Source: Candidatus Bathyarchaeota archaeon
GTDB taxonomy: Archaea > Thermoproteota > Bathyarchaeia > Bathyarchaeales > Bathycorpusculaceae
Assembly: GCA_963775685.1 (NCBI GenBank)
Contig: CAVZJV010000014.1
Span: 1 to 64,000 of the forward strand
Direction: 5' to 3'
DNA: 64,000 bases
Shown here: positions 7,663 to 38,546 of the stretch, piece by piece
Layout: every line of letters begins with the position of its first letter
Numbering within the stretch: the first letter of the stretch is position 1
Position numbers and translations under genes: made by a program
The notes under the pieces: model-generated
Database searches by the model: none
Told to the model about the DNA's origin: nothing
Seen by the model: the letters and a program-made list of their open reading frames with translations, nothing else

Positions 7663-7699
7663 GTTCTATTGTTAGAACGAAACGTTCTATGACCAGAGC
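7663..7699 (+). promoter_or_regulatory. tandem palindromic operator GTTCTA-N4-TAGAAC-N5-GTTCTA-N4-CAGAGC
   Basis: Same geometry at 9765, 32180 and 37982; TATA-like sequence follows. Confidence 0.75.
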
Positions 7700-7739
7700 T
7701 AATAAGCACCTTCGAAACAATGGTTTGTAGTGAAGGTGT

Positions 7740-8948
7740 ATGGAGTTCAAGTACAAACTCATCGCAGTTGCTGTTCTCGCTTTGTTGAGTGGAACAGCGT
7801 TTGCGGCACCACTGCTCGTCGTGCCCTTGGATGTCAAACCATACCCCCACATAACCGAAGGTCCCAAAGCAGATTTCAGCATAGAACTGCTATATGCAAA
7901 TTTCAGTGTGGTGGAATGGGAAAAACAGCAAACTACGCAACAGCTTGTGAGCAACTTCACAACGGGAAACTTTTCTTATGTTAATGTCATGCAAGCGGTC
8001 AAGTATGCGAACGTAACGTATACGGTTGTCGCTAACATAACTAACATTTCAGACTTTGCCGCTAAAATGTCCGAGGCAAGTTTCACCGCTGCCGAGAAAG
8101 TCAACGTCCTTAGCTCCGCTTTAGGTGGTTTTTCCGTTAACAAGGGCTTAGGTGATTGGCGCGGCACAAACTACGGCGGCGTAGTAGACGGGATTTGGCT
8201 GGATGGAAAATGGCTTAATACAACCTGGATTCAAGGCATAGACTATCCCCTGAACCTATTTCGTGTTATGAACCAAGACCACCGCACGCTACCCGTGATT
8301 CCCGACTTGCCTGAAAACGCTTCAGAAGACGGCACTTGGATAGAGGGAGTTCCGATCGCCGAGTATTATGACGGCACACGCCAGGTGGCAACTCAAATTT
8401 ACATCAACGGGGCATGGGCTGATGTAACAGGCAGAGTACAGCCGCATAATCCCCAGCCTATGGTACTGGCAAGCAACACCTTAGCGAACCTAGTATTAAC
8501 GTCAGGCACACCCATTTACCGAAACGAGGGAAATGCAACCGTTGGCCCTGTCACAGGGTTCCCAAGTTGGGGCATAGGGGTGGGTCAAACATATCGTTGG
8601 ACAGGCACATATGGGTTTGACAAAACTTGGCAACCCCGCCAATCCAAACTATTAATCTTCAATGGAACCCAAACCTTTGCTAATCCACAGCTAGGCATAG
8701 ACCTAACCGTTGCCGCTATGGACACTGGTACAATAGACCTCTATGGCTCTTTCACCAGCTACATAAACAACATGCCAGTCAACGGAACCTATACCAACAC
8801 AGTATCCACAACCACATGGGTAAAGTCGATCACACTGGAGAAAACTCAAAACAATTATGTGTACAACAATATATTGGGTCCAAACCAAGCCTTCGAAATT
8901 GCGCCCAACCGCGTTGAAGTATACATAAAGCAGGTGAATGAGCCTTGA
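7740..8948 (+). CDS. secreted/surface protein (cargo)
   Basis: Signal peptide, many N-x-S/T sequons. Confidence 0.85.
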   Translation: MEFKYKLIAVAVLALLSGTAFAAPLLVVPLDVKPYPHITEGPKADFSIELLYANFSVVEWEKQQTTQQLVSNFTTGNFSYVNVMQAVKYANVTYTVVANITNISDFAAKMSEASFTAAEKVNVLSSALGGFSVNKGLGDWRGTNYGGVVDGIWLDGKWLNTTWIQGIDYPLNLFRVMNQDHRTLPVIPDLPENASEDGTWIEGVPIAEYYDGTRQVATQIYINGAWADVTGRVQPHNPQPMVLASNTLANLVLTSGTPIYRNEGNATVGPVTGFPSWGIGVGQTYRWTGTYGFDKTWQPRQSKLLIFNGTQTFANPQLGIDLTVAAMDTGTIDLYGSFTSYINNMPVNGTYTNTVSTTTWVKSITLEKTQNNYVYNNILGPNQAFEIAPNRVEVYIKQVNEP

Positions 8949-9430
8949 CTAACGCCGAAGGATTAGAAGGAACAACCCTGATCGTTTACTCCCAGCTGGT
9001 AAAAGATGGAAAACCACTCGGTCCACGGGAGGTTATGCGTCTGGCTAACCTTAGCAGTCCAAGCGTTGCCTACTGGCACCTGCAAAAACTTGAATCCCTG
9101 GGCTTAATCGCAAAAACTGAATATGGCGAATACGAAGTCAAAGAAAAAGTAAACATCAGTGGTCACCTTTGGGTTGGAAAAACCCTTGTTCCACGGCTAA
9201 TCTTCTATGCCTTCTTCTTTATCGGCATCTTAATTGTCGAAGCCATAGCAATTGTCGGCCCATTCGTGCGTAGTGGACAAACCCCTGACCTTTTCCTTTT
9301 CTATCTGCTCGCTCCAACAGCCATCGCTACGGTCCTGTTCCTAACTGAAGGCATGTGGCTACGTAAGAAAACAAAAAGTGATAGCACTAAAAAGAAACAG
9401 ACTGCAGAAAAAAAGGAAGAGAGAAAATGA
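8945..9430 (+). CDS. membrane-anchored wHTH transcription regulator
   Basis: LEGTTL...PLGPREV...LSSPSVAYWHLQKLESLGL plus 2 TM helices; paralog of 32706. Confidence 0.85.
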   Translation: MTNAEGLEGTTLIVYSQLVKDGKPLGPREVMRLANLSSPSVAYWHLQKLESLGLIAKTEYGEYEVKEKVNISGHLWVGKTLVPRLIFYAFFFIGILIVEAIAIVGPFVRSGQTPDLFLFYLLAPTAIATVLFLTEGMWLRKKTKSDSTKKKQTAEKKEERK

Positions 9431-9738
9431 TTGAATGTCCTAAATGTGGTAGTAAAGTAAAAGCACGCAAACTTTTCTTCCTCACAAATATTAGTACAAT
9501 AAATTGTTCCGTATGCGGTTCTAAACTACGCATTAAAAACAGAGAAGTCAGCAGTGCGATTGGCGGTTTGGGTGGTGGAATCGGTGCTGGATTGGGTACC
9601 TTACTCCTGATCTTTTACATTCTAAGCGGTAATGTTATCTTCTTGGGGTTGTTTGGGGCATTAATTGTTGCTGTAGGCGTCGTTGCTTGGATTATTTTTG
9701 CTAAGTATGTTCGTTTAGAGTTATCTCAACGTGTTTAA
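9427..9738 (+). CDS. Zn-ribbon (CxxC-x20-CxxC) membrane protein
   Basis: CPKC...CSVC plus 2 TM helices. Confidence 0.8.
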   Translation: MIECPKCGSKVKARKLFFLTNISTINCSVCGSKLRIKNREVSSAIGGLGGGIGAGLGTLLLIFYILSGNVIFLGLFGALIVAVGVVAWIIFAKYVRLELSQRV

Positions 9739-9764
9739 AACCGTGCTCGTTAGGGGTTGGTGCT

Positions 9765-9801
9765 GTTCTAATACTAGAACAAAGTGTTCTATCAGCAGAG
9801 C
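9765..9801 (+). promoter_or_regulatory. tandem palindromic operator (GTTCTA type)
   Basis: gttcta-atac-tagaac-aaagt-gttcta-tcag-cagagc-taaaa. Confidence 0.75.
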
Positions 9802-9840
9802 TAAAAACAGATAACAACTAATATGATATAGTGAACAAGC

Positions 9841-11106
9841 ATGAAAGTTCCCAAAATAGTCGTAAACCTCTCAAGCTTACCTAATGTTGAGCCCCCGAAA
9901 ATTCAGCCCACAAAGAATTGGCGATTAGGCAAAAGACTCTATATCACTCTCGCAGTCATCGTCGCAGTAATAACGGTTACAGTGGCGCTTGTAGTAACGC
10001 AGGGAAACAGCATCGGTGCACAGACAGAATGGAGCAACACCTATTACGGCGACACTGGTCGTGCAATTCAGACTTCTGATGGAGGCTACGCTATCGCTGG
10101 CTCCAATGCATCAATAATGTATCCAGCTTGGGAACGTGCCCCAATTCTTATCAAGACGGATGCCTCTGGAAAGTTGCTGTGGAACAGAACCTTTGGCACT
10201 GGGCACGTTGCAACATCAAGCATTATACAAACTCAAGACGGCGGCTTCGCTATGTCAGGAACCAATATCGGGCTACCCGTTACAAACCCAGTTTACAGCG
10301 GATGGCTAATCAAAACCGATAGCAACGGCATGGTGCAGTGGACTAAAACTTTCGGTTTACCTCTTCAAACTTGTCATGCTATCCAAACAAGCGATGGCAA
10401 TTATGTCGTTGTAGGTTATGCGACAAATGAGGCGAAGGGCGCCGACACAGTTCTCTACAAATTGAATGCCCAAGGAACCTTGGTTTGGACTAAAACTTTT
10501 GGCGGAAACTCTTCAAAATTGTTTGGCATGGGTCTGGTTGAAGCCAACAGTGGCGGTTATGTGCTTGCAGGTGCTGTGGACCGAGACGGTTGGCTCGCCA
10601 AAACTGACACCAACGGCAACTTGCAATGGAGCCAAACATACAACATCAACACCGCAACTCTTCCGTTTACCTCGATAGCCAAAACTAAAGACGGCGGCTA
10701 CATACTCTCAGGGGGCAATTTGCAAAACAGTTGGCTCTTTAAAGCCAACGCAGACGGAAAACAAGAATGGGTCAAAACATTGCCGATGAATGGATTGATT
10801 GGAACTGCCGTGCAAACCCTTGATGGCAGATATATAGCAGTAGGCACAAGTGCCCGGCAAGCGTATGTTGCTGTAACTGATGCCTCAGGTAACTTGCAGT
10901 ACAATGCTTCCTACGGTGAAGTAAATGGGAACGTAAGCAGTAACGCCCAGTCCGTTGCCTTAACGGACGACGGTTTTGTTGTGGGAGGTTCACTTAACCG
11001 TTATGCGCCAACAAGCATCGAGGGACTCAAAGTTACTCCTCCAATAGGCTGCAATGTTTGGCTGGCAAAGTTTCCATTACAACCAAATGCGGAACCAACG
11101 GGTTAG
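9841..11106 (+). CDS. membrane-anchored beta-propeller repeat protein
   Basis: N-terminal TM; QTSDGGYAIAG...LIKTDxxG..W repeats. Confidence 0.85.
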   Translation: MKVPKIVVNLSSLPNVEPPKIQPTKNWRLGKRLYITLAVIVAVITVTVALVVTQGNSIGAQTEWSNTYYGDTGRAIQTSDGGYAIAGSNASIMYPAWERAPILIKTDASGKLLWNRTFGTGHVATSSIIQTQDGGFAMSGTNIGLPVTNPVYSGWLIKTDSNGMVQWTKTFGLPLQTCHAIQTSDGNYVVVGYATNEAKGADTVLYKLNAQGTLVWTKTFGGNSSKLFGMGLVEANSGGYVLAGAVDRDGWLAKTDTNGNLQWSQTYNINTATLPFTSIAKTKDGGYILSGGNLQNSWLFKANADGKQEWVKTLPMNGLIGTAVQTLDGRYIAVGTSARQAYVAVTDASGNLQYNASYGEVNGNVSSNAQSVALTDDGFVVGGSLNRYAPTSIEGLKVTPPIGCNVWLAKFPLQPNAEPTG

Positions 11107-11470
11107 AGTTGTAGCAAAAACCCCTATGAAGACGGTTTCTACAATTGTTGCTCAAAGGACTGTTTGGGAAGAGATTGTTATATAAGTGCAAACAAGCATA
11201 GGGTGGATACAATGTGGGAAAATGTCATTGGTTCAAGTACGGTTTTCCGATGCTTTCTAAAATTAGAACAGCTGATATGTTAACACAGCTTATTCATAAT
11301 AATCGCGGGAAATCCCACTACTTGAATGATTTCTCATAAACAATTATTTGAAGTAAATTTGCCAAGTATTCTTGTGTGCAATTGCTTAAGAGCAAGCGCT
11401 TCTTAGTGTAATTTGTTGGGTTAACCTCTTGCAAGCAAGCGTTTAGTTTCCTCGCCTCCTTAGTTGGAGC

Positions 11471-11794: not shown

Positions 11795-11799
11795 TTCTG

Positions 11800-12054: not shown

Positions 12055-12070
12055 TTTAGGAGAGGATTGT

Positions 12071-12256: not shown

Positions 12257-12281
12257 CACATTCGAAGGGAGAGCGTAAAAT

Positions 12282-12556: not shown

Positions 12557-13132
12557 TTGTCTATTACTTTGGAAGAGGCTTTGGGCTTAAAGCAACCAGA
12601 AAAGCCTGTTGAAGCAGAAGCCGAGGAAGAATACTCTGAGGCGGACCTTAAGCGTATCCTACGTAGAAAGTTCGTGTTTGAACGTAGAGCTCGTGGAGAT
12701 ACGGTTGAGGAGATTGTCAGTTTTTGTCAGAAAAAAGGGTACCCTGTCACCCAACGAACAATCTTTAGGGATTTGAAAAGTGATGAAGTAGCTTCCCTTA
12801 TCGATGAGCTTGTGCGTGTGCAATTGCGGGATATTGCTTTGCTGCGTGGCTATGCTTTAGAGGATCCCAAGAATCCCAATTTGAAGGCGTTGGCTGCTGC
12901 AATTGGTGCTCGAGGCTTTATGGTCAGTTGTTTGAAGCCTAAACTTGAACCTAGTGTGAATGTGGAAGTGAATGTCGCTAACAAAACCCAACACGTGCTC
13001 CTCGCAGAATACGCCGGCGTCATATCGGAAGCTGCAACTCTTAACAGCAATCTTTCAAGAGTACGTGTTGGAGAATCCTTGGATTCCAAATCGTCCTCAT
13101 CCAGTGACGGGAAAGAGCGGTCCGACTCCTAA
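12557..13132 (+). CDS. putative terminase small subunit
   Basis: HTH (VTQRTIFRDLK); lies immediately before TerL. Confidence 0.6.
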   Translation: MSITLEEALGLKQPEKPVEAEAEEEYSEADLKRILRRKFVFERRARGDTVEEIVSFCQKKGYPVTQRTIFRDLKSDEVASLIDELVRVQLRDIALLRGYALEDPKNPNLKALAAAIGARGFMVSCLKPKLEPSVNVEVNVANKTQHVLLAEYAGVISEAATLNSNLSRVRVGESLDSKSSSSSDGKERSDS

Positions 13133-14481
13133 GCAGGCAAAGTTTCTTCTGTTGCTTGATTGTTTGGAGGCTTTGTTTGGTGGCGCCGCAGGAGGCGGAA
13201 AGTCAGATGCTTTGCTTATGGCTGCCGCGATGTTTCTGGATGTCCCAGGGTATGCCGCGATTATTCTTCGACGTAGCTTCACGGACTTGAATAAACCTGG
13301 CGCTTTAATATCGAGAAGTTTTGAGTGGTGGGGTAAGACTGCTGCTCGTTGGGATGGGATTAATCATACGTGGCATTTTCCCTCAGGTGCATCGTTGACT
13401 TTTGGGTTTTTGGAAAATGACCGGGACGTTTTTCATCATCAGAGTGCGGAGTACCAGTTTGAGGGTTGGGATGAGATCACCCAGTTTACTGAGTATTCTT
13501 ATCGTTACATGATAAGTCGTATGCGTCGGCTTAAACGGTTTGAGTGGCTTCCTCTGCGTGTTCGTGCTGCATCCAATCCGCCGCATAAGATTGGGGGTGT
13601 TGTGCAGGGGTATTGGGTTAAGGGTTATTTTTTGCCTTGGTTTGTTTGCCATCATTGCGGTTTTAAGATGCAGACTGAAGACTTAGACCTCGCAATTTGC
13701 CCTGAATGCAATAGTTCTGAGAGTCATGTTGAGTTTAATTGTGATGAGGAAAGCGGTGAGCCACGGAGTCTTTATTCCCTCAACTTTGGATGATAACATT
13801 TTCCTCGATAAGACAAGTTACATTAAAAGCCTAAATCGGCTGGATCCTATTACCCGTGAGCAGCTGCGTCGGGGTAGCTGGAAAGTCAGTTCAAGCGGGA
13901 TGCTTAAGCGAGAGTGGTTTGTTAACGGCAAAGAGCGCCTACTTATTGATGCTTCAGCTGTACCTGAGAAGGCTAGACGGGTGCGGGTTTGGGATTTGGC
14001 TTGTACTGAAGAGGGCGATGCACCTGACCCCGATTATACAAGCGCTCTAAGAGCTGCTATGGTTGAGGGGCACATGTACATTGAGGATGTAAGGCGTTTT
14101 CGTGGCAGTCCTTCAAGGATCCAGAGCGAGATGGCGGCTTGTGCAGAATTAGATGGTCAAACAATGCCTATTCACATCGAGCAGGAAAAGGGTTCAGCTG
14201 GAAAGAACTTAATTGATCTCATTAGCCGCACTACCTTGTTGGGTTACGTTGTTGTTAGTGAGTCACCGACTGGTGAGAAAGCTGTCAGGGCTACCCCGTT
14301 GGCGAATGCTGCAGAGCGTGGGCACGTGCATTTGGTTCGTGGCCAGTGGAACAGTGCTTTCCTAGATGAGGCGGAGTTTTTTCCCTCGGGCAAGCATAAG
14401 GACCAGATCGATACGGCTGCTTATGCCTACAACATTTTAGCGATGGTTAAGAAGAGACCCAAGGCGGCAAATGCATCATGA
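12972..14481 (+). CDS. terL: terminase large subunit, split by a +1 indel near 13766
   Basis: GGAAGGGKS, WDEITQF and ASNP in ORF1; VFIPSTLDDN, WDLA...DYTS and KHKDQID in ORF2. Confidence 0.92.
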
Positions 14482-30044: not shown

Positions 30045-30546
30045 GCGTCTTGTAGTAGATTCGTCAGTTCTCATATTCTATGATAGAAAGAGGAAATTAG
30101 AGGATTTCTTGCAGGCGAAAAAGAAAGAAAACTATAAAGTCATAATTCCAAAAGCGATAGCACAGGAAGTCGTTGATGAACCAAAAGAGTTTGCAAGAGA
30201 AATCAAACAAACAGCTCCCGAATCCGCAAAGCAAATACTTGATTCTGTGAAAAGGTTCAACACTGCCATTGAACAAGGACTTATCCAAGTAGAAAATGTG
30301 AATTATAGAGAATATTCGAAAGTAATAGATAACGTTAGAAAACACTTAAGCAGGCTCGATGCTACTCCGGAATACGCGGTAAAGAAGGGCGACCCAGAAC
30401 TCATAGCGCTTGTTATTCAACTCTACGGTGAAGCTAAAGAGAAGGTCTTTGTTGCAACATTGGATAAGGGGTTGCTAAAGGCGCTCAAGCCATTTGGAGG
30501 CTTAGTTGATTACGAAGTCATGGTCCAAAATTCCATCCATAAATGA
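30037..30546 (+). CDS. PIN-domain (VapC-like) toxin
   Basis: VVDSSVLI...IPKAIAQE...GDPELIAL...ATLDKGL; overlaps the antitoxin. Confidence 0.8.
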   Translation: MPKRLVVDSSVLIFYDRKRKLEDFLQAKKKENYKVIIPKAIAQEVVDEPKEFAREIKQTAPESAKQILDSVKRFNTAIEQGLIQVENVNYREYSKVIDNVRKHLSRLDATPEYAVKKGDPELIALVIQLYGEAKEKVFVATLDKGLLKALKPFGGLVDYEVMVQNSIHK

Positions 30547-31248: not shown

Positions 31249-32154
31249 TTAACTATTTTTTGCGTGTTTCTCAACCTCCAAATATTGCTTGCCCTTTTTT
31301 TTGTTCAGCATTAATTTCAAGCGATGTCTGTTTGTGAATAAGGCAACTGAGACTATGACAGCACTTGCCATAGCAACAAGCAGTAAGTAAGGTAACCAGA
31401 CGGGTGAGATTGAAGCTTTAGTAGTCGATAAACTGGAGTCTATCAGTGATTGATCTACAGGCGCAGGCACAGGCGCCCAAGCGTATTTGATGCTAACATT
31501 TGAAGTAGCTCCCTCAACTATGAGTCCTGTGCCGTATGGAATCACTCCATCGGTAAAGTTCAAACTGGATGTGTTATAATCTGCTTGTTTGCCATCAATG
31601 CAAACCTCAACACCCAATGGCCAAGTGAACGTTCCATTAATGGTATCTTGAGAAGGCTCTGTCCAATTTGCCCGATTGAACCGGATTCTAATAATTTGCT
31701 CTCCAATACCAGCTACTGTGTAATTTAGCCAGCCCTCTGTTAACCATGAACCCCTATTCTGGTTGTCACTTCCATCTGGGGTTAGAAGCCGTTCGAAACT
31801 GGTTATAGTGATATTGCTGTCTTGTGTTGTTATGTTTAGGTTTGCGGTTGTTGGGCTGTCAGAGAGGATATCGGCGTGTTGTGGGTCAAGTTGTAGGTGA
31901 GTAAAAACCCATGTGTCATCGACGAGAGTGGCGTTACTATAATATCCTGTCTCGTTGAAACATATGGTGCCGTTTGTTGTCGGGATGGTAAATTGGGTTT
32001 CTGACGTGAACGCCATCGAAGTTGCGATGCTTGTAAATATGTTGGTTTCGTACGCTTTTATGGGAAAGAAGACATACGACAATGCTAAGATTACACAAAG
32101 TGCTACAATGATATTTCTGCATTTCATTGTTGTTACCTCTTGCTTTTGACACAA
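31249..32154 (-). CDS. membrane-anchored surface protein
   Basis: Signal peptide, sequons, C-terminal TM plus basic tail. Confidence 0.85.
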   Translation of the reverse strand: MCQKQEVTTMKCRNIIVALCVILALSYVFFPIKAYETNIFTSIATSMAFTSETQFTIPTTNGTICFNETGYYSNATLVDDTWVFTHLQLDPQHADILSDSPTTANLNITTQDSNITITSFERLLTPDGSDNQNRGSWLTEGWLNYTVAGIGEQIIRIRFNRANWTEPSQDTINGTFTWPLGVEVCIDGKQADYNTSSLNFTDGVIPYGTGLIVEGATSNVSIKYAWAPVPAPVDQSLIDSSLSTTKASISPVWLPYLLLVAMASAVIVSVALFTNRHRLKLMLNKKKGKQYLEVEKHAKNS

Positions 32155-32179
32155 TACACTGATGTGGGGCGGTACTTAA

Positions 32180-32216
32180 TGCGATGTTTTAGAACGAACT
32201 GTTCTTTTTTTAGAAC
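32180..32216 (-). promoter_or_regulatory. tandem palindromic operator (GTTCTA type)
   Basis: Minus strand gttcta-aaaa-aagaac-agttc-gttcta-aaac-atcgca-ttaagta. Confidence 0.7.
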
Positions 32217-32241
32217 ATGCTTTACTAGAGGAAGTCATTAT

Positions 32242-32574
32242 CTACCGATTAATTTCCTTCTTGAGGCTTCTTTCTGAAAATAACAAAAGAGCAGCAACTA
32301 TCGCAACTACTATAGCGGCAACAGCAAAAAGAATTGAAACTATATTGCCACTTAATGGGGTAGTTTGCGCCACTGGGGGTGATGTCGGCAAGGGCGTCAT
32401 TGTAGAATTAGGATTTGAGGTAGGTTGAGGGTTTGGGGGACCTTGCGAAGCATCTTGGGGCAAAAAACTTACCGATCCTGCAAGCAATAAGGCTAATGCG
32501 ATTGCAAGAATGGGCGCGAACAGCATTTTCTTTCGGAGCAGGCTCATAATTTCAACCTTACCTACGATACTCAT
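32242..32574 (-). CDS. small protein: signal/TM, P/T-rich linker, TM
   Basis: Two hydrophobic helices flanking a PT linker. Confidence 0.75.
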   Translation of the reverse strand: MSIVGKVEIMSLLRKKMLFAPILAIALALLLAGSVSFLPQDASQGPPNPQPTSNPNSTMTPLPTSPPVAQTTPLSGNIVSILFAVAAIVVAIVAALLLFSERSLKKEINR

Positions 32575-32618
32575 GAAAACACGCAGTCGGTTATTTAATG
32601 CTATATTTTATTGAAGGT

Positions 32619-32634
32619 GTTCTAATTTTCGAAC
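32619..32634. promoter_or_regulatory. palindromic operator gttcta-attt-tcgaac
   Basis: In the divergent intergenic region before the wHTH-TM regulator. Confidence 0.65.
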
Positions 32635-32705
32635 AGGCTACATGAGTAACTGTTGAGGGTAGCTCTTAAATTATTGTTGCGCTTTGTTTTGGCATGTGAA
32701 AGAGT

Positions 32706-33128
32706 TTGGTTGACGATGACCCCAAAGAAGTGCTAAGAGGAACTACTCTTGAAGTTTACCGTTTTCTGTTAAAAAGCAACAAGCCTATTGGAACAAGGGA
32801 ACTTCAAAGAGCTCTAAACCTTAGCAGTTCCTCGGTAGCCACGTACCATCTATCTAAACTTGAAGATGCCGGGCTTCTAAGAAAGGAGCCTGGCGGTTTC
32901 ACCGTTAGCAAATTCCTTTTGGAAAACAGCATCAAAATAAATCGTTTTCTAGTTCCAAGATACTTTTTTTATGCGATATTTGCCATAGCAATTCTCATAA
33001 TAGAATTGACAATTATGAAGCCGGCTGTTCTTTATCGTGAATACGTTTTTTCGTTGGTTGCAACCGTTATACTCACCTTTTTCTTTTGTTACGAAACACT
33101 AAAAACTTGGCGACGGGGCAATTTGTAA
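32706..33128 (+). CDS. membrane-anchored wHTH transcription regulator
   Basis: LRGTTL...PIGTRELQRALNLSSSSVATYHLSKLEDAGL plus 2 TM helices. Confidence 0.88.
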   Translation: MVDDDPKEVLRGTTLEVYRFLLKSNKPIGTRELQRALNLSSSSVATYHLSKLEDAGLLRKEPGGFTVSKFLLENSIKINRFLVPRYFFYAIFAIAILIIELTIMKPAVLYREYVFSLVATVILTFFFCYETLKTWRRGNL

Positions 33129-33162
33129 TAGATATCAGGTCACAGGCAAATATTACTAAACC

Positions 33163-34818
33163 CTACCTTCTATTTATCACTGAAGATCGCCGTCTCCTTT
33201 TTGCTCTAATGACAATGATAGTTACTGCGGCTATGATTGCGGCTGCAACTAATAGTCCGATTATAAGTGGAGTTGAAAAGGAAGTGGCTGACTGGTTCCA
33301 ATAGTATATTTGGCTGTATTTTTCAGTGATGTTATAGGCTGGGTCGTCATAGACTATGTCTAGTTTTGAGCCGTATTGCGCCAGTTTGTTTTGGAGCTGG
33401 TTCCAGATTTGCTGTGACGTATCATTTGGTTTCCACAATCCCCAAATCGTGTCGTTTGTATGCCTCATGCCCCATCCATAGTCTTGGGGTAAAACCAATG
33501 CTGCTTCACCTGTAATTCCGCCATGGACAACCTTGGGGTTTTGCACTACATCGTTCCAGAAGCGCTGGAGAGCTTGGAAATGCTCAGTCTGTAATGTTCC
33601 ATAGGGATCAGTCATGTTTTCAGCGTAATTAAAAACCACAACATACTGAGCGCCACACTCATAAGACAAGTGCATTTGATCATACATTTCATCTCCGCTG
33701 GGTAAATAGGGCGGCTGATTGTATTTCCAATCTATGATAGTGCCCCAATTTTTACCCTGCAAATTCGCCGATCCTCTTACAAGACCGATTTCTTGGGCAA
33801 CAGTATTATTCCAGCCTAATTCAGCAAAGACTGTATCATAGCCAATTTGGTAGTCCCACCAATAAAGAACATAGTCAGAAGTGAAAAGCTTAACGTCATC
33901 TCGATTAGCTATCCAATCTGTTGTCGCTTGCTGGTTTTTTAAATAAGACGCGGCTACTGCGGATAAATCATCCATTGTTTGGAATGGACGTGAATCCCAA
34001 AGTTGTCGGTAGGGTTCAAACTGGGAAATATTACCCATATCCGTCACCGCTACAAAAAAGGGTTTATTTAACAATTGGTTGAGAACAGTTCCAGTTGTTC
34101 TCCAAGAGTCATTATTTGCGTTCGGAGAGCTTGTTTGTTTGAGCACGGTTCCATTTGTCAAGTAAATCACATATTCATTGTTTTTTGCAAGAGCGATGGT
34201 TCCATTCGGAAAATAGTTAATCATCGTGTAATTGCCTGCCGCCAAGTCAGCATACTGTACATTAATCTGTCCTGAAAAGTCAGGACTATAAAGGAATGAT
34301 TTACTCGTCATGATTGAGCCAGAGGTTTGGCTGACGGTGAGGTCATGGCTGCTTACCGACACATTGCCTATATTGGGTACGTTATCCAAGCGCATGATTC
34401 CATCGAATGCTTTTCCGCTAGCTTCATCTCCATAGTATATTCCCAAGAAGTGGTTGCCCCATCGTTCCTGCGCTGTATCGATAAAGGCAGCGGTTTTATC
34501 CCTATTTGTCTCGTATGAACCGAAATAAACGATGATATCTAACCCTGATTTAACAGCATAATCGCAAGTTTTAACCAATTCGTCGATATTACCCTGTAGG
34601 GGACCTGAAGCTACAACAAACAGGTTAGTATAATCTTTAACTTTATCAATCAGTATTTTCGCATCGGCGGCGTTGTCCCCGCCGAACGTTACGCCAACAT
34701 GAAACGGCTGGCTATCTTGTGCGTTTGCATTACCTACGCTGTTAACTGCAAAAATATTTACTATAAAAATGGCTATTAAAAGCACTGCAAACGCCGAAAA
34801 TAGTTTTGCTCTTTTCAT
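33163..34818 (-). CDS. membrane-anchored surface protein, possible glycoside-hydrolase-like TIM barrel
   Basis: Signal peptide, FLGIYYGDE motif, C-terminal TM. Confidence 0.85.
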   Translation of the reverse strand: MKRAKLFSAFAVLLIAIFIVNIFAVNSVGNANAQDSQPFHVGVTFGGDNAADAKILIDKVKDYTNLFVVASGPLQGNIDELVKTCDYAVKSGLDIIVYFGSYETNRDKTAAFIDTAQERWGNHFLGIYYGDEASGKAFDGIMRLDNVPNIGNVSVSSHDLTVSQTSGSIMTSKSFLYSPDFSGQINVQYADLAAGNYTMINYFPNGTIALAKNNEYVIYLTNGTVLKQTSSPNANNDSWRTTGTVLNQLLNKPFFVAVTDMGNISQFEPYRQLWDSRPFQTMDDLSAVAASYLKNQQATTDWIANRDDVKLFTSDYVLYWWDYQIGYDTVFAELGWNNTVAQEIGLVRGSANLQGKNWGTIIDWKYNQPPYLPSGDEMYDQMHLSYECGAQYVVVFNYAENMTDPYGTLQTEHFQALQRFWNDVVQNPKVVHGGITGEAALVLPQDYGWGMRHTNDTIWGLWKPNDTSQQIWNQLQNKLAQYGSKLDIVYDDPAYNITEKYSQIYYWNQSATSFSTPLIIGLLVAAAIIAAVTIIVIRAKRRRRSSVINRR

Positions 34819-34907
34819 TCAACAGCTCTCCTTTAGCTTCTAATTACCGGTAAATACAGCATTAGGCTTCTTATTTTTATCCCTAATTCGAAGTGTTCTA
34901 ATCTTTA

Positions 34908-35882
34908 GTGCAGTCTTGGTTAAGAAACCTTGACGAATGCACTTATATCTTTAATGAGTGCCTAACAAATTGTAGAGATGATGATGTGAACAAGCATTGG
35001 GTTCTGCCAATCAGCCTTGCCTTTCTTTTGTCCATGGTTGCCACTATTCCAGTTATCAATGCACAATCAGTTGGCAATATAGTGATCAACTCCGACGGCG
35101 CCTTCACAGGGACAGATGCCATTAACCGCAAGGGTAACACCTACACTTTAACGGCAAACATTTCAGGCAACATACAAATTCAGAGGAGCAACATAATAGT
35201 AGACGGCGCAGGGTATTCGCTTAACCAAGGTGGAATAGACCTAACAAACGGAATAGGGCAAGACCCAACACGTTCTACCATTATCAATGTAACAATCGAA
35301 AACTTGTATGTCGAAAGCGGCAGCATAGGCACTAATGGGGGTGGAAATTACACTTTCTACGATGACTACATACCTTCTATCCAGTTTTTAGGAGACTGTA
35401 TTAACAATAACATAACTTTCTGCACCGTTGAAGCAGTATCATTTGATTACGGAGGAAACGCAACATTAACTGAAAATAACCTCGGTAGCGTCTTAGTATG
35501 GTTAAGCTTTGGCGGAGTTGCTGACAGAAACTATTGGAGTGATTATTTAACAAAATATTCTAATGCTACAGAAATAGACAGCACGGGAATAGGTAACACG
35601 CCCTATGTATATTCTATAGTAGAAACACAGACGCCCTTAATCTATAAGGACAATCATCCGTTAATGAAGCCAGTTGCAATTCCGTTGATGGGTTCAAATA
35701 CTTTAAGCCCATTAACCCCAACACCTACTATAACACAGCTTCCTACAGTTAATACTGGTGCAGAAACACCACAGACAGAGTCTATAATTATTGTCGCTAT
35801 TACCTTTGTAATCGCATTAGCGGTGGCTGCTGGTTTGTTTTACTATTTCAGGAAACAGAAGCATGGAGCTGTACAAGGATGA
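34908..35882 (+). CDS. NosD/beta-helix-like surface protein (likely start about 34986)
   Basis: IVINSDG...YTLTANI...IIVDGAGYSL; NYWSDY...GIGNTPY...DNHPLMKP; C-terminal TM. Confidence 0.85.
   Translation: MQSWLRNLDECTYIFNECLTNCRDDDVNKHWVLPISLAFLLSMVATIPVINAQSVGNIVINSDGAFTGTDAINRKGNTYTLTANISGNIQIQRSNIIVDGAGYSLNQGGIDLTNGIGQDPTRSTIINVTIENLYVESGSIGTNGGGNYTFYDDYIPSIQFLGDCINNNITFCTVEAVSFDYGGNATLTENNLGSVLVWLSFGGVADRNYWSDYLTKYSNATEIDSTGIGNTPYVYSIVETQTPLIYKDNHPLMKPVAIPLMGSNTLSPLTPTPTITQLPTVNTGAETPQTESIIIVAITFVIALAVAAGLFYYFRKQKHGAVQG
34919..34934. promoter_or_regulatory. palindrome gttaag-aaac-cttgac upstream of a TATA-like ttatat
   Basis: Matches the 21905 site, with the same 8-nt spacing to a TATA-like element. 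Confidence 0.65.
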
Positions 35883-36559
35883 AAAGAACAAAATTGGCGG
35901 TAATAGTCATTTTAGCGCTAGTAATTTCAGTGCCAGCGCTTCTACAAGTTAATTTGGTAAGAGCGCATTATTATCCACCGCCCTCCATTGAAATCTTTTC
36001 GCCAATCCCTGCTCCCGACGTTCATTCAACTGCATCTGTTCCACTTCAGGTTCGTGTTAACGTCTTAACAGACGACGCTGCCATTACTTTCATCCGTTAT
36101 AGTCTGGATGGAGGAGCCAACGTTACACTTACCGATTTAACAAGAGAAGACGGGCTTTATTATTGGACTACTACAAAAGGCGTTTTTGCACATGGCAATG
36201 CTTTCAGTACACAAGCCTCTTTGGACAACGTAGACGAAGGCAATCATACGCTTATCGTGTACTCGCACGCTGCTGATGGTAAAGAAATGTCGCGAACACG
36301 AGAGTTTAAAGTGGACTACAACTATGTGCCGCCTCAACTACCACCTTTAACATTGCCCAATGGCACATCAATGCAACCAGCGACTTCATCAGCCCAAACT
36401 GAAACACCCATAACAACAAACGCAGATAGTTTCCAACCCTTCGAAGACCCTGCATTATTCATAATTATAGCTTGCATTTCGGTATCGCTGTTAGCAGGAA
36501 TACTGTTCTTCAGAAAAAAACCTAAAGGTTTTATGAAATTGAAGGACAAAGAAAATTGA
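35879..36559 (+). CDS. Ig-like surface protein with C-terminal TM
   Basis: YSLDGGAN...EGNHTLIVY. Confidence 0.85.
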   Translation: MKRTKLAVIVILALVISVPALLQVNLVRAHYYPPPSIEIFSPIPAPDVHSTASVPLQVRVNVLTDDAAITFIRYSLDGGANVTLTDLTREDGLYYWTTTKGVFAHGNAFSTQASLDNVDEGNHTLIVYSHAADGKEMSRTREFKVDYNYVPPQLPPLTLPNGTSMQPATSSAQTETPITTNADSFQPFEDPALFIIIACISVSLLAGILFFRKKPKGFMKLKDKEN

Positions 36560-36582
36560 GTGTACCAAAACGTTGGTCGCTT

Positions 36583-36598
36583 GTTCTAAACTGTAGCA
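36583..36598 (+). promoter_or_regulatory. TATA-proximal GTTCTA-type site
   Basis: gttcta-aact-gtagca-ttaaata, like the second site at 32180. Confidence 0.5.
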
Positions 36599-36643
36599 TT
36601 AAATATCACTTTAAAGCTTAGATAGACTGGGAATGCCACCTAA

Positions 36644-37177
36644 ATGAAAATAACTCGAAAGCATACGCTATTACTAGTTGTTATTCTTTTAATTGCCCTT
36701 TTCTTAGTCTTAACCGTTTTTTTGGCGAGTAATCAACCAGTGGCCTCTTCTCCCCAATCAGAAGGTAGTGTCTATCTTCATTTTCCAAGTGATTACCAAG
36801 GAGGCGAAGAAACCAAGGCTTACTTGATTGACTCACAACTTTATTATGGAAATTACAACCAAAGCTTCACCCGCTCAGGCGCCACAGGCTCTTATTCTAT
36901 TAACAATGGCGATGCGTGCGTTATCATAAATGGAACAATTAGAAATGACTACTCCAAAGATTACTATTTCAGCATAACAGCAAATGTTTACAATTCTACA
37001 AACCAAAAAATCGGACCAATTCTTACCGCAAACTCGCCACAGCCAGGTTTCACCATTACTAAAGTGAGCAACAGTTCAATAGGAACATTTGAAATACAAA
37101 TACCATACGACAGAAAAGACATCGCAAACTACGACCTTCTTCTCGCATTCGAACCAACCGAAACCCCACCCCCTTAG
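36644..37177 (+). CDS. N-terminally anchored extracellular protein
   Basis: TM plus beta-sandwich (IINGTIRNDY). Confidence 0.8.
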   Translation: MKITRKHTLLLVVILLIALFLVLTVFLASNQPVASSPQSEGSVYLHFPSDYQGGEETKAYLIDSQLYYGNYNQSFTRSGATGSYSINNGDACVIINGTIRNDYSKDYYFSITANVYNSTNQKIGPILTANSPQPGFTITKVSNSSIGTFEIQIPYDRKDIANYDLLLAFEPTETPPP

Positions 37178-37298
37178 GAGATTTGACTTGAAAAGCCCAA
37201 GCGTCCAACCAAATAATGCAACTGTTAACGCGATTCCTATAGCGCTAGCAATAGTTACGGTTGCTGGTTTGTTGGCGTACTCCAAAAAACATAAGCCG

Positions 37299-37934
37299 AT
37301 GAAGTTAAGTGAGCTGAGTAAAGGTTTGGCTTTAGCTTTTGTTCTAACATTGGTTGTGTCAAGCCTAATGATGGTTGAATCTGCAGTCGCTCAGACACCT
37401 ACACCTGTTGCAACTTTGACACAGTCAGAACCAACTGTTTCTTTTGCTCTTTGGCATACAAATTCATCTGTTATTCAGCCACCAGCAGATGAACTTGAAC
37501 ATATTCCTCCAATCTGTGAAATAGTGTTTCCTGAAAATCAAACTGTGTTGCAAGCAAGCAACTTTACATTAACAGTAGATGTGGCTTCGTATTTTTGGAC
37601 GATTGATAGTGTTTATTACCAAGCGGATTGGCAAGACGGTATTCACCAGCTTTTTGGTATTCAGACTAATTATGTAAACTCATTAAACGCCTCAATTGTC
37701 GCAACGTTTCAACAGATTCCTTTCGGTAATCATACATTGACCGTTTATGCTAATACCCATGATAACTCCCATAGCAATGCCACAGTTACATTTTCAACCG
37801 AAAGGTTCACAGAAAAACCTCAGCCTTCTTCGTCTTTTTCCGTCGTAGCTGTTGTTGCTGTCATCTTAGTAGTTTTCGGAATAAGTGTAGGTTTTATGCT
37901 TTATAGAAGGCATCGAAAAACCGCTAACCCCTGA
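37299..37934 (+). CDS. Ig-like surface protein ending YRRHRKTANP
   Basis: Signal peptide from ATG 37299, GNHTLTVYAN, TM; the in-frame upstream part is a relic TM tail. Confidence 0.8.
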   Translation: MKLSELSKGLALAFVLTLVVSSLMMVESAVAQTPTPVATLTQSEPTVSFALWHTNSSVIQPPADELEHIPPICEIVFPENQTVLQASNFTLTVDVASYFWTIDSVYYQADWQDGIHQLFGIQTNYVNSLNASIVATFQQIPFGNHTLTVYANTHDNSHSNATVTFSTERFTEKPQPSSSFSVVAVVAVILVVFGISVGFMLYRRHRKTANP

Positions 37935-37981
37935 ATTAAGGCCTTTTCTCAATCAAATTTATAATCACCCAATCGCTTGCT

Positions 37982-38018
37982 GTTCTTTTAGCGGAACAGA
38001 TTGTTCTCTAAGGAGAGC
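37982..38018 (+). promoter_or_regulatory. tandem palindromic operator (GTTCTA type)
   Basis: gttctt-ttag-cggaac-agatt-gttctc-taag-gagagc-taaaa. Confidence 0.7.
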
Positions 38019-38093
38019 TAAAAGTAACTCTAGCATACTCTATTTTGAGCAGAAATAAAGAAAGCTCTGTAACTAAGGGGAAATGATGACTAA

Positions 38094-38546
38094 ATGAAAA
38101 CCAAAGTAAAAGTTTTAGCTATAATAATTTCAGCAATAGTCATAGCAACCATTGGATTTACTGTTGAATTTAGTGTTATACCAACCGAAACACAGTCTAT
38201 TTCTTCACTAATAACAACGCCAACGAAACCTATAACAAATAATGTGACAGTCTCAGGTTTAATTATTAGCCACGGCTTAACTGTCCCACCTACCGAAGTG
38301 CAATTCATAAACACAGAAACCCATGAGGTTTACAAAGCGCCAATAAGTCAGCCACAATATTCCTATGCTATATCTCTTCCAGTTAATCAAACGTATGGTA
38401 TAGAAGGCGACTGGAACGGCAGGACATTTAACGCTACTGGAATACCGATGGGTGCCATAACAATGAGATGTGACAATGGTTTACCAATTCTAAATCTATA
38501 CAACGCCAACAGCACAATGATACAAAATCTTGTCGTTGGGCAATAA
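38094..38546 (+). CDS. N-terminally anchored extracellular protein
   Basis: TM plus beta-rich domain. Confidence 0.75.
   Translation: MKTKVKVLAIIISAIVIATIGFTVEFSVIPTETQSISSLITTPTKPITNNVTVSGLIISHGLTVPPTEVQFINTETHEVYKAPISQPQYSYAISLPVNQTYGIEGDWNGRTFNATGIPMGAITMRCDNGLPILNLYNANSTMIQNLVVGQ

What the first reader, a model, noticed from the sequence alone, without database searches (positions are those of the whole stretch)
7663..38546. Provirus-borne surface-protein regulon: repeated GTTCTA-N4-TAGAAC operators plus membrane-anchored wHTH regulators
Seen: a 37-bp bipartite element (16-bp palindrome, 5-nt spacer, degenerate second copy, then TAAT/TAAA/TTAA) recurs with identical spacing at 7663, 9765, 37982 and (minus strand) 32180. 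Single sites occur at 32619 and 36583. Each lies just upstream of a secreted or membrane-anchored cargo gene; I noticed none before the viral core genes. Two paralogous wHTH+2TM proteins (8945, 32706) sit next to such sites: one in the operon behind 7663, the other divergent across 32619. Inference: a membrane-tethered one-component system, architecturally like ToxR/CadC, that controls a dispersed set of surface proteins carried by an archaeal virus, possibly for envelope sensing, receptor masking or superinfection exclusion.
Basis: partly seen in the sequence, partly recalled or inferred. Interest (0 to 1): 0.85.

Follow-up and report, generated by a model that had tools for sequence, protein, structure and literature searches.

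The report
Membrane-anchored regulators' operators, host-wide, borrowed by provirus
The repeated DNA element is real, but it is the standard control site in front of secreted-protein genes across a whole genus of Bathyarchaeia, most likely read by small membrane-anchored DNA-binding proteins, and the provirus merely carries two such host-type gene cassettes.

Summary
Observation confirmed. The 37-bp element (16-bp palindrome, 5 nt, second box, then TAAA/TAAT) stands at 7663, 9765, 37982 and 32216-32180(-). The exact core occurs only 6 times in the 3.06-Mb genome.

Interpretation partly supported. The element is not virus-specific. The same architecture, [TGTTCY-N6-RGAACA]-N3-[TGTTCY-N6-AGARC]-TATA, with a start codon about 40 nt on, matches 30 of 36 genomes of the genus (238 matches against 8 for the reversed control). 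It nearly always precedes signal-peptide genes (55 of 63).

The wHTH+2TM proteins are a paralogous host family. Four lines tie them to the boxes:
- fixed boxes in or beside the regulator's own promoter;
- half-site variants that change with the recognition helix (GTTCT against GTTCG);
- box length that changes with the helix (16 against 17 bp);
- phyletic co-occurrence.

Both cassettes lie in chromosomes with no viral genes nearby in 6 of 7 other genomes examined, so the provirus (att 2972/41480) captured host cassettes.

The closest known system is ArnR/ArnR1 of Sulfolobus; these proteins lack its HAMP and sensor part. Binding, the sign of regulation and the signal are all inferred.

Earlier AI notes of this scan describe similar membrane-regulator/surface-gene pairs in other archaea.

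The parts
2972..2988 (.). attL: 17-nt direct repeat of the 3' part of tRNA-Pro; left end of the provirus
   Evidence: The same 17-mer stands at 2972 and 41480. Similarity to the other proviruses of the genome begins at 3230.
7663..7706 (+). Bipartite operator 1: box 1 at 7663-7678, box 2 at 7684-7699, TATA-like TAATAAG at 7700-7706. Promoter of the cassette A operon.
   Evidence: An equivalent site is held at about -1110 to -1400 from the regulator gene in 23 of 30 orthologous loci.
7740..8948 (+). 402-aa secreted protein with a signal peptide, no family match; first gene of the cassette A operon
   Evidence: MEFKYKLIAVAVLALLSGTAFA.... No Pfam, PHROG or NCBIfam hit. 57-63% identical orthologs stand next to wHTH-A orthologs in 5 other genomes.
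8945..9430 (+). wHTH-A: membrane-anchored winged-helix regulator, 161 aa. Its TTG start overlaps the stop of the upstream gene.
9427..9738 (+). Zinc-ribbon protein with a C-terminal membrane segment; third gene of the operon
   Evidence: Orthologs follow wHTH-A in G064 and G001.
9765..9808 (+). Bipartite operator 2: box 1 at 9765-9780, box 2 at 9786-9801, TAAAAAC
   Evidence: The equivalent site directly after the regulator gene or operon is seen in L040-L045 and L047.
9841..11106 (+). 421-aa membrane-anchored protein (anchor at about residues 29-59), beta-propeller-like repeats
   Evidence: A 60% identical ortholog stands after wHTH-A in G096.
31249..32127 (-). 292-aa surface protein (counted from the ATG): signal peptide, C-terminal anchor, 11 N-x-S/T sequons
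32173..32216 (-). Bipartite operator 3, on the minus strand: box 1 at 32216-32201, box 2 at 32195-32180 (degenerate), TTAAGTA
   Evidence: Homologous copies are seen in P3 and in the B-type loci L099, L102, L103 and L106.
32242..32574 (-). 110-aa Pro/Thr-rich surface protein with a signal peptide and a C-terminal anchor, divergent from wHTH-B
   Evidence: Orthologs lie beside wHTH-B in G064, G023 and G129.
32619..32634 (.). Single palindrome GTTCTAATTTTCGAAC between the two divergent TATA-like boxes (TAAAATATAG on the minus strand, CTTAAATT on the plus strand)
   Evidence: It is present within 170 nt upstream of the regulator in 29 of 30 B-type loci, with 0 matches elsewhere in 191,610 nt of the same loci.
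32706..33128 (+). wHTH-B: membrane-anchored winged-helix regulator, 140 aa
   Evidence: Pfam HTH_20 at 31.3 bits against a cut-off of 27.
33163..37934 (.). Five further genes for signal-peptide and/or membrane-anchored proteins: 33163-34818(-), 34908-35882(+), 35879-36559(+), 36644-37177(+), 37089-37934(+). A lone half-site plus TTAAA stands at 36583-36603.
   Evidence: The 36583 half-site is not conserved. No bipartite site lies before these genes.
37982..38025 (+). Bipartite operator 4: box 1 at 37982-37997, box 2 at 38003-38018, TAAAAGT
   Evidence: A near-identical copy is at C14:1511125 in provirus P3.
38094..38546 (+). 150-aa protein with an N-terminal anchor or signal
40500..41423 (+). 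Tyrosine integrase of the provirus
   Evidence: Pfam Phage_integrase E 4.9e-21; PHROG 1 E 2e-27.
41474..41552 (-). tRNA-Pro(GGG), the integration target; attR repeat at 41480-41496

Best explanation
**What it is.** The 37-bp element is a two-box operator built into the promoter of genes for secreted and membrane proteins in one genus of Bathyarchaeia.

**Layout.** Each box is a palindrome of the type TGTTCY-N6-RGAACA. The two boxes start 21 bp apart, which is two helical turns and so the same face of the DNA. Box 2 abuts a TATA-like TAAAAG/TAATAA. The start codon follows about 40 nt later.

**Who reads it.** The boxes are most likely bound by dimers of small regulators. Each regulator has an N-terminal winged helix, a short beta-hairpin and a two-helix membrane hairpin with both ends in the cytoplasm. 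The family has diversified into paralog groups. Each group has its own half-site variant:
- GTTCTA..TAGAAC
- GTTCGG..CCGAAC
- GTTCCA..TGGAAC
- GTTCTAA..TCGAAC

**How it probably works.** All boxes lie upstream of the TATA box and none lies over the expected transcription start. I therefore think the regulators activate by helping TFB/TBP onto a weak BRE/TATA (about 55:45 over repression). While bound they would hold these genes at the membrane. The signal is probably sensed inside the membrane, where both membrane helices carry a conserved Glu, or through a co-encoded surface protein.

**Role of the provirus.** The tailed provirus (2972-41496) carries two complete host-type cassettes as accessory cargo. 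Cassette A is 7663-11106 and cassette B is 31249-38546.

**Shown by computation:** the motif, its placement, the class of its targets, its linkage and co-variation with the regulators, and its host-wide distribution.

**Inferred:** binding, the sign of regulation, the signal, and the benefit to virus or host.
For: **1. Architecture.**
- I found 65 distinct promoter-oriented sites in G000 and the fetched loci. Their consensus is GTTCta....tgGAACA...TGTTCt.t.a.tAGAGCTAAaa.
- The distance from the end of box 2 to the start codon has median 40 nt, IQR 38.5-43.

**2. Targets.**
- 55 of 63 downstream ORFs have an N-terminal hydrophobic stretch, against 773 of 3625 ORFs genome-wide by the same crude measure.
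- 5 of the 8 misses are ORFs cut by the end of the locus.

**3. Distribution.**
- The pattern GTTCY-N7-GAAC-N5-GTTCY matches 30 of 36 other genomes of the genus and 4 of 24 genomes from other families of the order.
- There are 238 matches in all, against 8 for the reversed control.

**4. Linkage of boxes to the regulator genes.**
- A-type: 23 of 30 loci have the site at the operon promoter.
- B-type: 29 of 30 have the palindrome in the regulator's own divergent promoter, with 0 matches elsewhere in 191,610 nt.
- C-type: 11 of 30 have a GTTCC-type bipartite site just downstream.
- E-type, a core gene across the order: 18 of 29 have GT[TA]CTA-N4-6-GG..-TTATA at -71 to -82, with 0 elsewhere in 183,098 nt.
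- D-type loci serve as a negative control: 0 of 30 have a bipartite site, and only 5 hold a stray single GTTC..GAAC match, at no fixed place.

**5. Co-variation of helix and box.**
- Helix ..NLSSPSVA(Y/H)WHLQ goes with box 1 GTTCT in 14 of 14 loci.
- Helix ..NLTSPS(V/I)AHWHLQ goes with GTTCG in 9 of 9 loci. Box 2's left arm changes the same way, while the arm next to TATA stays AGAGC.
- In B-type loci, helix SSSS goes with a 16-bp box in 13 of 14. Helix SSPS goes with a 17-bp box in 13 of 15 (one 16 bp, one with no box). One STPS locus also has 17 bp.
- The B-type states are interleaved on a FastTree tree.

**6. Phyletic co-occurrence.**
- The six genomes of the genus without the pattern (G002, G006, G017, G018, G033, G036) are also those with no hit better than E 1e-40 to the A, B or C queries and none at 1e-45 to D.
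- 29 of the 30 genomes with the pattern have an A, B or C hit at 1e-45 or better; with D included it is 30 of 30. I chose this threshold after seeing the data.

**7. Other regulators of the provirus do not travel with the cassettes.** HTH 12282 had no hit in any of 7 relatives' regions. HTH 29595 hit only in the G129 provirus.

**8. Precedent.** ArnR/ArnR1 of S. acidocaldarius have an N-terminal HTH and two C-terminal membrane helices. They need two 15-bp inverted-repeat boxes at -43 to -84 of the archaellin promoter (PMC6396743, passages read).
Against: - There is no binding data, no mapped transcription start and no expression data.
- Orthologous loci are kin, so the counts are not independent. 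The GTTCT to GTTCG switch maps to one clade (10 of 10 tips, support 0.967) and is therefore a single event.
- Seven of the 14 bipartite sites in G000 lie far from any regulator gene.
- The commonest host class (GTTCT..GGAAC + GAGAGY) could not be tied to one paralog.
- The D-type paralog has no site nearby.
- The family as a whole is much wider than the bipartite element: 58 of 61 genomes of the order against 35 of 61.
- Box 2 covers the place of the BRE, which would equally suit a repressor.
- Signal peptides were judged by a hydropathy window and a crude ORF caller, not by a trained predictor.
Confidence: 0.62

Rival explanations
1. The boxes are operators of some other, soluble regulator of the host. 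The wHTH+2TM genes are merely members of that regulon, being membrane proteins like the other targets.
For: - Seven of 14 sites in G000 are far from any wHTH+2TM gene.
- The regulators are themselves membrane proteins, so they fit the target class.
- Linkage in orthologous loci can be inherited without any function.
Against: - Half-site changes track changes in the recognition helix of the neighbouring regulator.
- Boxes are fixed in the regulators' own promoters in three subfamilies.
- The other HTH genes of the provirus do not accompany the cassettes in other genomes.
- Genomes without A-D paralogs lack the element.
Confidence: 0.2
2. The element is an extended core-promoter signal, a special BRE or upstream element read by a TFB/TBP variant for secretome genes, with no dedicated regulator.
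For: - Box 2 abuts the TATA-like motif.
- Its TATA-side arm (AGAGC/AGAAC) stays the same across all box variants.
Against: - Two dyad-symmetric boxes on the same DNA face are the signature of dimeric wHTH proteins, not of TFB.
- The symmetric arm changes (GTTCG..CGAAC) would not be needed for a BRE.
- I did not search the genomes for extra TFB or TBP paralogs.
Confidence: 0.07
3. The elements are recombination or cassette-boundary sites that move surface-protein genes between islands and proviruses.
For: - The cassettes are mosaic. They occupy variable slots in three related proviruses and in chromosomal islands.
- Inverted repeats are typical recombinase targets.
Against: - The orientation is fixed and the distance to the start codon is tight (IQR 38.5-43 nt).
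- The element is fused to a TATA-like motif.
- Sites also stand before single-copy core genes such as the E-type regulator across the order.
- No recombinase is linked to the chromosomal cassettes.
Confidence: 0.04

Closest known systems
ArnR / ArnR1 of Sulfolobus acidocaldarius, membrane-bound one-component activators of the archaellum (PMC6396743, passages read; Lassak et al. 2013 known only as cited there)
   Same: - N-terminal HTH and two C-terminal membrane helices.
- Two inverted-repeat boxes upstream of BRE/TATA, both needed for binding.
- The targets are cell-surface structures.
- Paralogs exist with overlapping roles.
   Different: - ArnR has a HAMP-like and a sensor domain between the HTH and the membrane helices. 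Here only an 18-residue hairpin separates them, in proteins of 140-161 aa.
- The box consensus is TCGAC-N5-GTCGA at -43 to -84. Here it is TGTTCY-N6-RGAACA, with box 2 touching the TATA.
- The targets here are a broad set of secreted glycoprotein-like proteins, not type IV pili.
- Sequence relatedness to ArnR was not tested.
ToxR, CadC, TcpP and the co-component pairs VtrA/VtrC and ToxR/ToxS of bacteria (census PMC10269533, passages read; PMC9214523, abstract read)
   Same: - A DNA-binding domain is held at the membrane and acts on promoters without a kinase.
- Some work with a separately encoded outside partner whose gene overlaps theirs. Here the 402-aa secreted protein gene overlaps the wHTH-A start.
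   Different: - Those have an OmpR-type winged helix, one membrane pass and a periplasmic domain.
- These have an ArsR/MarR-like winged helix, a two-helix hairpin with an outside loop of 5-10 residues, and no outside domain.
Archaeal activators that bind just upstream of BRE/TATA (Ptr2 of M. jannaschii, TFB-RF1 of P. furiosus). Recalled from my own knowledge, not read here.
   Same: Dimer sites sit directly upstream of the core promoter. Two sites are used in the case of Ptr2. They recruit TBP or TFB.
   Different: Those are soluble Lrp-type or other regulators, with no membrane anchor and unrelated recognition sequences.
Phage morons and lysogenic-conversion cassettes (general concept, recalled)
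   Same: Self-contained gene cassettes with their own promoters sit in variable slots of a tailed provirus. They encode surface proteins that are not needed for virion production.
   Different: Here the cassette brings its own membrane-anchored regulator and operator, of a type native to the host lineage. The same cassettes are chromosomal in most relatives.

Membership tests
ToxR/CadC-type transmembrane regulators | OmpR-type winged-helix DNA-binding domain (Pfam Trans_reg_C) | tested here: not met
   The Pfam scan gave HTH_20, LexA_DNA_bind, MarR and similar, and no Trans_reg_C, for either protein.
ToxR/CadC-type transmembrane regulators | Single membrane pass followed by a periplasmic or extracellular sensor domain | tested here: not met
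   There are two hydrophobic helices (84-110 and 116 to about 140) joined by a short loop, and a basic C-terminal tail.
ArnR/ArnR1 family | N-terminal HTH and two C-terminal transmembrane helices | tested here: met
   The ArnR architecture is as described in PMC6396743.
ArnR/ArnR1 family | HAMP-like and sensor domains between the HTH and the membrane helices | tested here: not met
   The proteins are 140-161 aa. The wing ends at about residue 65 and the first membrane helix starts at 84. No HAMP hit was found in Pfam.
ArnR/ArnR1 family | Sequence homology to ArnR | not tested
NCBIfam gave only weak sub-threshold hits to ArsR/SmtB, Lrs14 and Sta1 models.
ArnR/ArnR1 family | Two inverted-repeat boxes upstream of BRE/TATA of the target promoter | tested here: met
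   The 16-5-16 architecture ahead of a TATA-like motif is seen. The consensus differs from TCGAC-N5-GTCGA. No transcription start has been mapped.
ArsR/SmtB-like winged-helix regulators (Pfam HTH_20/HTH_5) | Winged-helix fold and a profile match | tested here: inconclusive
   - wHTH-B scores 31.3 bits on HTH_20, above the cut-off of 27. wHTH-A scores 17.0 bits, below it.
- The fold is a winged helix: 2d1h_B aligns at rmsd 1.8 over 63 columns. No Foldseek match has E <= 0.001.
- The best PDB sequence hit is MJ223 (1ku9), E 0.0026.
- Metal-site residues were not examined.
Transmembrane transcription regulators as defined by Demey et al. 2023 (a predicted DNA-binding domain plus at least one transmembrane region) | Both features in one polypeptide | tested here: met
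   The definition was read in PMC10269533.
Integrated tailed virus (Caudoviricetes-like provirus) | Terminase, tail and neck genes, an integrase, and att repeats at a tRNA | tested here: met
   - TerL: PHROG 979, E 2.5e-52 and 2.3e-39, but split into two frames.
- Tape measure protein, and an HK97 gp10-like neck protein.
- Integrase.
- A 17-nt att repeat at 2972 and 41480.
- Portal and capsid are assigned only by position and by homology to the other proviruses.

The most novel reading that the evidence does not exclude
The wHTH+2TM proteins are the DNA-binding halves of kinase-free outside-to-gene relays.

- The co-translated surface protein acts as the extracellular sensor partner. For cassette A this is the 402-aa secreted protein, whose gene overlaps the regulator's start codon.
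- The membrane tether keeps the secretome genes at the membrane, so that transcription, translation and export are coupled.
- Tailed viruses of Bathyarchaeia carry complete, self-contained relay cassettes, consisting of operator, sensor, regulator and effector surface protein. With these they re-dress the lysogen's surface, for example to shut out superinfecting viruses.
Probability: 0.2. Interest if true: 0.85.

Novelty: new variant of a known kind. Interest (0 to 1): 0.62.

Why it matters
Bathyarchaeia are abundant and uncultivated, and as far as I could find nothing is known about how they regulate genes.

This finding gives a concrete, testable regulon:
- a defined cis-element;
- a defined class of targets, the secretome;
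- a small family of candidate regulators whose DNA-reading helix and half-site appear to change together.

That amounts to a natural specificity series that could be tested with a handful of purified domains.

It also extends the ArnR-type idea of membrane-bound archaeal transcription factors to a minimal form with no sensor domain.

Finally, it shows that archaeal tailed proviruses can pick up whole host regulatory cassettes for surface proteins. This bears on lysogenic conversion in archaea.

Tried and rejected
- **RNA evidence.** The look-up of sequencing runs on 7500-11200 listed no RNA holder, so no transcription start or expression could be examined.
- **Dimer prediction.** Two copies of wHTH-A with a 56-row alignment gave 'no answer' (score 0.01, mark 0.42). 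I make nothing of it.
- **Alignment query on genome contigs.** I used the genome search with single paralogs instead.
- **Viral contigs.** Peptide-pattern scans of viral contigs with wHTH-A and wHTH-B found no relative. A DNA-pattern scan found one IMG/VR contig, L159. It has a GTTCC-type site before a signal-peptide gene, next to a tape-measure homolog.
- **Other provirus regulators as the binder.** I considered the HTH genes at 12282 (Sso10a-like) and 29595 (TrmB/ArsR-like, next to a PIN gene). I rejected them because they do not accompany the cassettes elsewhere.
- **The site at 36583.** It is kept only as a weak half-site.
- **The palindrome at 11254.** TTTCTAAAATTAGAAC lies in an intergenic stretch with no second box and no TATA-like tail in register. 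I did not count it.
- **The D-type paralog as master regulator of the commonest box class.** There is no linkage at all: 0 of 30 loci.
- **Literature.** Four searches found no description of this element or of this regulator family in Bathyarchaeia. The supplements of the TTR census (PMC10269533) were not opened and may list members of the family.

Full report
**The observation**

- 7663(+)
- 9765(+)
- 37982(+)
- 32216-32180(-)

.

Chance does not explain them:
- The strict palindrome with up to two mismatches gives 9 matches in the window. Shuffles give a mean of 2.63, and none of 100 reaches 9.
- The exact core GTTCT-N7-GAAC-N5-GTTCT occurs six times in the whole 3.06-Mb genome, four of them here.
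- The single palindrome at 32619 is real.
- The 'site' at 36583 is only a half-site plus TTAAA, and homologous regions do not keep it.

**The setting**

The window is the first 64 kb of contig C14 of a 14-contig genome. NCBI names two close homologs of the regulators as coming from Candidatus Bathyarchaeia.

Positions 2972-41496 are an integrated tailed virus:
- large terminase, tape measure, neck protein and integrase;
- a 17-nt direct repeat of the tRNA-Pro 3' part at both ends.

All sites lie inside it. Two further, mosaic relatives of this provirus lie in the same genome, at C14 about 571.6-604.7 kb (P2) and about 1494.2-1514.4 kb (P3).

The cargo genes behind the sites encode proteins with N-terminal signal or anchor segments. 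Many also have a C-terminal anchor with a basic tail and many N-x-S/T sequons.

Neither a PWM scan of the genome nor a single-box scan of the provirus found a site before a replication, packaging, head or tail gene.

**The element is not the virus's own**

A PWM built from the sites finds about 14 bipartite sites in this genome:
- four in this provirus;
- two in P3;
- eight before host genes: C1:70071, C11:912, and C14:377925, 1339691, 1402849, 1525574, 2191242 and 2229308.

Read in the direction of the downstream gene, they all share one plan. Box 1 is followed by 5 nt, then box 2, then TAAAAG/TAATAA, then a start codon.

The pattern GTTCY-N7-GAAC-N5-GTTCY matches:
- 30 of 36 other genomes of the same genus;
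- only 4 of 24 genomes from eleven other families of the order;
- 238 times in all, against 8 for the reversed control.

Over G000 and the fetched loci I collected 65 distinct promoter-oriented sites.
- The consensus is GTTCta....tgGAACA...TGTTCt.t.a.tAGAGCTAAaa.
- The two TGTTC arms start 21 bp apart.
- The distance from box 2 to the start codon has median 40 nt, IQR 38.5-43.
- Of 63 downstream ORFs, 55 have an N-terminal hydrophobic stretch, against 773 of 3625 ORFs genome-wide by the same crude measure.
- Five of the eight misses are ORFs cut by the end of the locus.

So this is a genus-wide promoter-operator design for secreted and membrane proteins.

**The regulators**

The proteins at 8945 (A) and 32706 (B):
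- They are 44% identical.
- Each has two hydrophobic helices after a winged helix.
- The AlphaFold model of A (pLDDT 93.3) shows the winged helix at 10-65, a beta-hairpin at 74-83, and helices at 84-110 and 116-160.
- With a basic C-terminal tail, both ends should be cytoplasmic and the outside loop only a few residues long.
- Foldseek finds only generic winged-helix matches.
- The best PDB sequence hit is MJ223, at E 0.0026.

The family:
- It is small: 495 representatives at E <= 0.001 among 1.84 billion.
- It is general in the lineage: 58 of 61 genomes of the order hold 1-9 copies.
- G000 has eight.
- An alignment shows a nearly fixed recognition helix, L-S-S-P-S-V-A-x-x-H-L, and a conserved Glu in each membrane helix.

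**Do the regulators read the boxes?**

Four lines of evidence say so, all computational.

*1. Position.* I took 30 loci (regulator plus or minus 1.5 kb) for each of five paralog groups.

| Group | Loci with a box | Where the box lies |
|---|---|---|
| A | 23 of 30 | promoter of the operon [about 400-aa secreted protein - regulator]; several also have a second site right after the operon |
| B | 29 of 30 | GT[TA]CTAA..T[TC]G[AT]AC between the divergent TATA boxes of the regulator and a small surface-protein gene; none elsewhere in 191,610 nt |
| C | 11 of 30 | a GTTCC-type bipartite site just downstream |
| E | 18 of 29 | a box fused to TTATA at -71 to -82; none elsewhere in 183,098 nt |
| D | 0 of 30 | no bipartite site; five loci hold a stray single GTTC..GAAC match at no fixed place |

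The E group is a core gene, found in 72 of 81 genomes of the order. The D group is single-copy and serves as a negative control.

*2. Co-variation.*
- In the A group, helix ..NLSSPSVA(Y/H)WHLQ goes with GTTCT..AGAAC in 14 of 14 loci.
- Helix ..NLTSPS(V/I)AHWHLQ goes with GTTCG in 9 of 9 loci. The right arm is CGAAC in 7 of those 9. Box 2's left arm also becomes GTTCGG, while the arm next to the TATA stays AGAGC.
- That switch is one clade (10 of 10 tips, support 0.967), hence one event. But it needed three coordinated base changes that keep the dyad.
- In the B group, helix SSSS goes with a 16-bp box in 13 of 14 loci. Helix SSPS goes with a 17-bp box in 13 of 15; one has 16 bp and one has no box. 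One STPS locus also has 17 bp.
- On a FastTree tree of these short proteins the B states are interleaved, so more than one change is likely. I did not test the support for this.

*3. Co-occurrence.*
- Six genomes of the genus lack the pattern.
- They are also the ones with no hit better than E 1e-40 to the A, B or C queries and none at 1e-45 to D.
- 29 of the 30 genomes with the pattern have an A, B or C hit at 1e-45 or better.
- I picked the threshold after seeing the data, and kin are not independent.

*4. No rival regulator travels with the cassettes.*
- The other HTH genes of the provirus (12282, 29595) do not accompany the cassettes in other genomes.

**What speaks against it**

- There is no binding, transcription-start or expression evidence.
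- Seven of the 14 sites in G000 are far from any regulator gene.
- The commonest host box class (GTTCT..GGAAC with GAGAGY) has no assigned paralog.
- The family is wider than the bipartite element.

**Host or virus?**

I fetched 40-60 kb around seven orthologous cassettes.
- In G064, G003, G001, G124, G096 and G023 the A and/or B cassette is present. None of the terminase, portal, capsid, tape-measure, tail or integrase queries hits at E <= 1e-8.
- Only G129 holds a near-identical provirus. It has the B cassette and no A cassette (for the missing A ortholog).
- In P2, the slot that holds cassette A here holds a 206-aa signal-peptide gene. In front of it are two GTTCC boxes that start 32 nt apart, one extra helical turn.
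- One IMG/VR contig has a GTTCC-type site before a signal-peptide gene, next to a tape-measure homolog.

So viruses of this genus repeatedly carry motif-driven surface-protein genes in variable slots. But the cassettes, their operators and their regulators are of host type.

**Mechanism**

- With the TAAA motif as TATA box, box 2 covers about -46 to -31 and box 1 about -67 to -52. No box lies over the expected start.
- As I recall the general rule for archaeal regulators (not read here), sites upstream of BRE/TATA usually activate.
- The invariant TATA-side arm of box 2 looks like a shared BRE-like part.
- I therefore favour activation by recruitment of TFB/TBP, at about 55:45 over repression.
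- Only 18 residues separate the wing from the first membrane helix. The DNA must therefore come to the membrane, which would place secretome genes at the site of export.
- There is no outside domain. The signal must be sensed in the membrane (the conserved Glu residues) or through a partner.
- The 402-aa secreted protein gene overlaps the start of wHTH-A. The pair is kept in at least five other genomes. This recalls the bacterial co-component pairs (PMC9214523, abstract).
- All of this is inference.

**Comparison with what is known**

- The nearest known system is ArnR/ArnR1 of Sulfolobus acidocaldarius. It has an N-terminal HTH and two C-terminal membrane helices. It uses two inverted-repeat boxes upstream of BRE/TATA, both of which are needed. 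Its targets are surface structures (PMC6396743).
- The present proteins lack ArnR's HAMP and sensor part and have a different box. Homology was not tested.
- They meet the broad definition of transmembrane transcription regulators (PMC10269533). They fail the defining features of ToxR/CadC.
- Four literature searches found no description of this element or family in Bathyarchaeia.

**Earlier notes of this scan**

Earlier AI notes, which I did not check, describe similar pairs of a membrane-anchored regulator and a surface-protein gene with palindromic operators in other archaea. One of them shares sequence words with wHTH-B. The theme is therefore not unique to this window.

**Verdict**

- The regulator-operator idea is supported by several independent computational lines, though unproven.
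- The 'provirus-borne regulon' framing is wrong. This is a host-lineage regulatory design of which the provirus carries two cassettes.
- It is a new variant of a known kind: membrane-bound archaeal one-component regulators.
- Its value lies in giving a testable regulon and an apparent specificity series in an uncultivated group.

Noticed in passing
window 12972-14481: The large terminase is split into two overlapping frames (12972-13790 and 13687-14478). The 90% identical provirus P2 has one 502-aa frame. This provirus may be defective, or the assembly may carry a frameshift error.
   Followed up: partly
G000 C14:571,600-604,700 (P2) and C14:1,494,200-1,514,400 (P3): Two further mosaic relatives of the provirus lie in the same genome. 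They share different modules with it at 83-94% identity. P3 has the B cassette and P2 has the structural module.
   Followed up: partly
window 18820-20073 (-): A PQQ-like beta-propeller surface protein, with a signal peptide and a C-terminal anchor, is encoded antisense in the middle of the head-tail module. No box stands in front of it. Paralogs lie beside the chromosomal cassettes in G064, G001, G096 and G023.
   Followed up: no
window 41633-42940 (-) and 40154-40573: A second tyrosine integrase with an N-terminal zinc ribbon lies just beyond tRNA-Pro. Similar integrase stretches occur elsewhere in the genome. This looks like a tRNA-Pro integration hot spot, or the remnant of another element.
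   Followed up: no
window 48026-50665 and 51152-53755: Two large paralogous genes, 66% identical to each other at the DNA level, have dozens of partial look-alikes across the genome. One copy at C14:819,128-822,245 is 97% identical. I did not annotate them.
   Followed up: no
window 29595-30546: A TrmB/ArsR-like HTH gene overlaps a PIN-domain gene. The pair is 100% identical in the G129 provirus and 94% identical at the DNA level in P3. It may be a toxin-antitoxin-like or lysogeny-control pair.
   Followed up: no
G000 C14:599759-599806 (P2): A variant bipartite site has boxes that start 32 nt apart instead of 21, which still puts them on the same DNA face. It stands before a 206-aa signal-peptide gene, in the slot that holds cassette A in the window.
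   Followed up: partly
window 8945; G000 paralogs: Most regulator paralogs start with TTG. wHTH-A's start overlaps the stop codon of the upstream gene. The paralog at C14:575973 has no ATG, GTG or TTG start in frame near its N-terminus.
   Followed up: no
alignments A1 and A2: One Glu in each of the two membrane helices is conserved across the family (E135 of wHTH-A in at least 90% of 56 sequences). Charged residues inside a membrane hairpin suggest a partner or an ion or lipid signal.
   Followed up: no
window 1-2970: The stretch left of attL is 92% identical to the end of contig C12 in reverse. It is either a repeat or an assembly duplication at contig ends.
   Followed up: no
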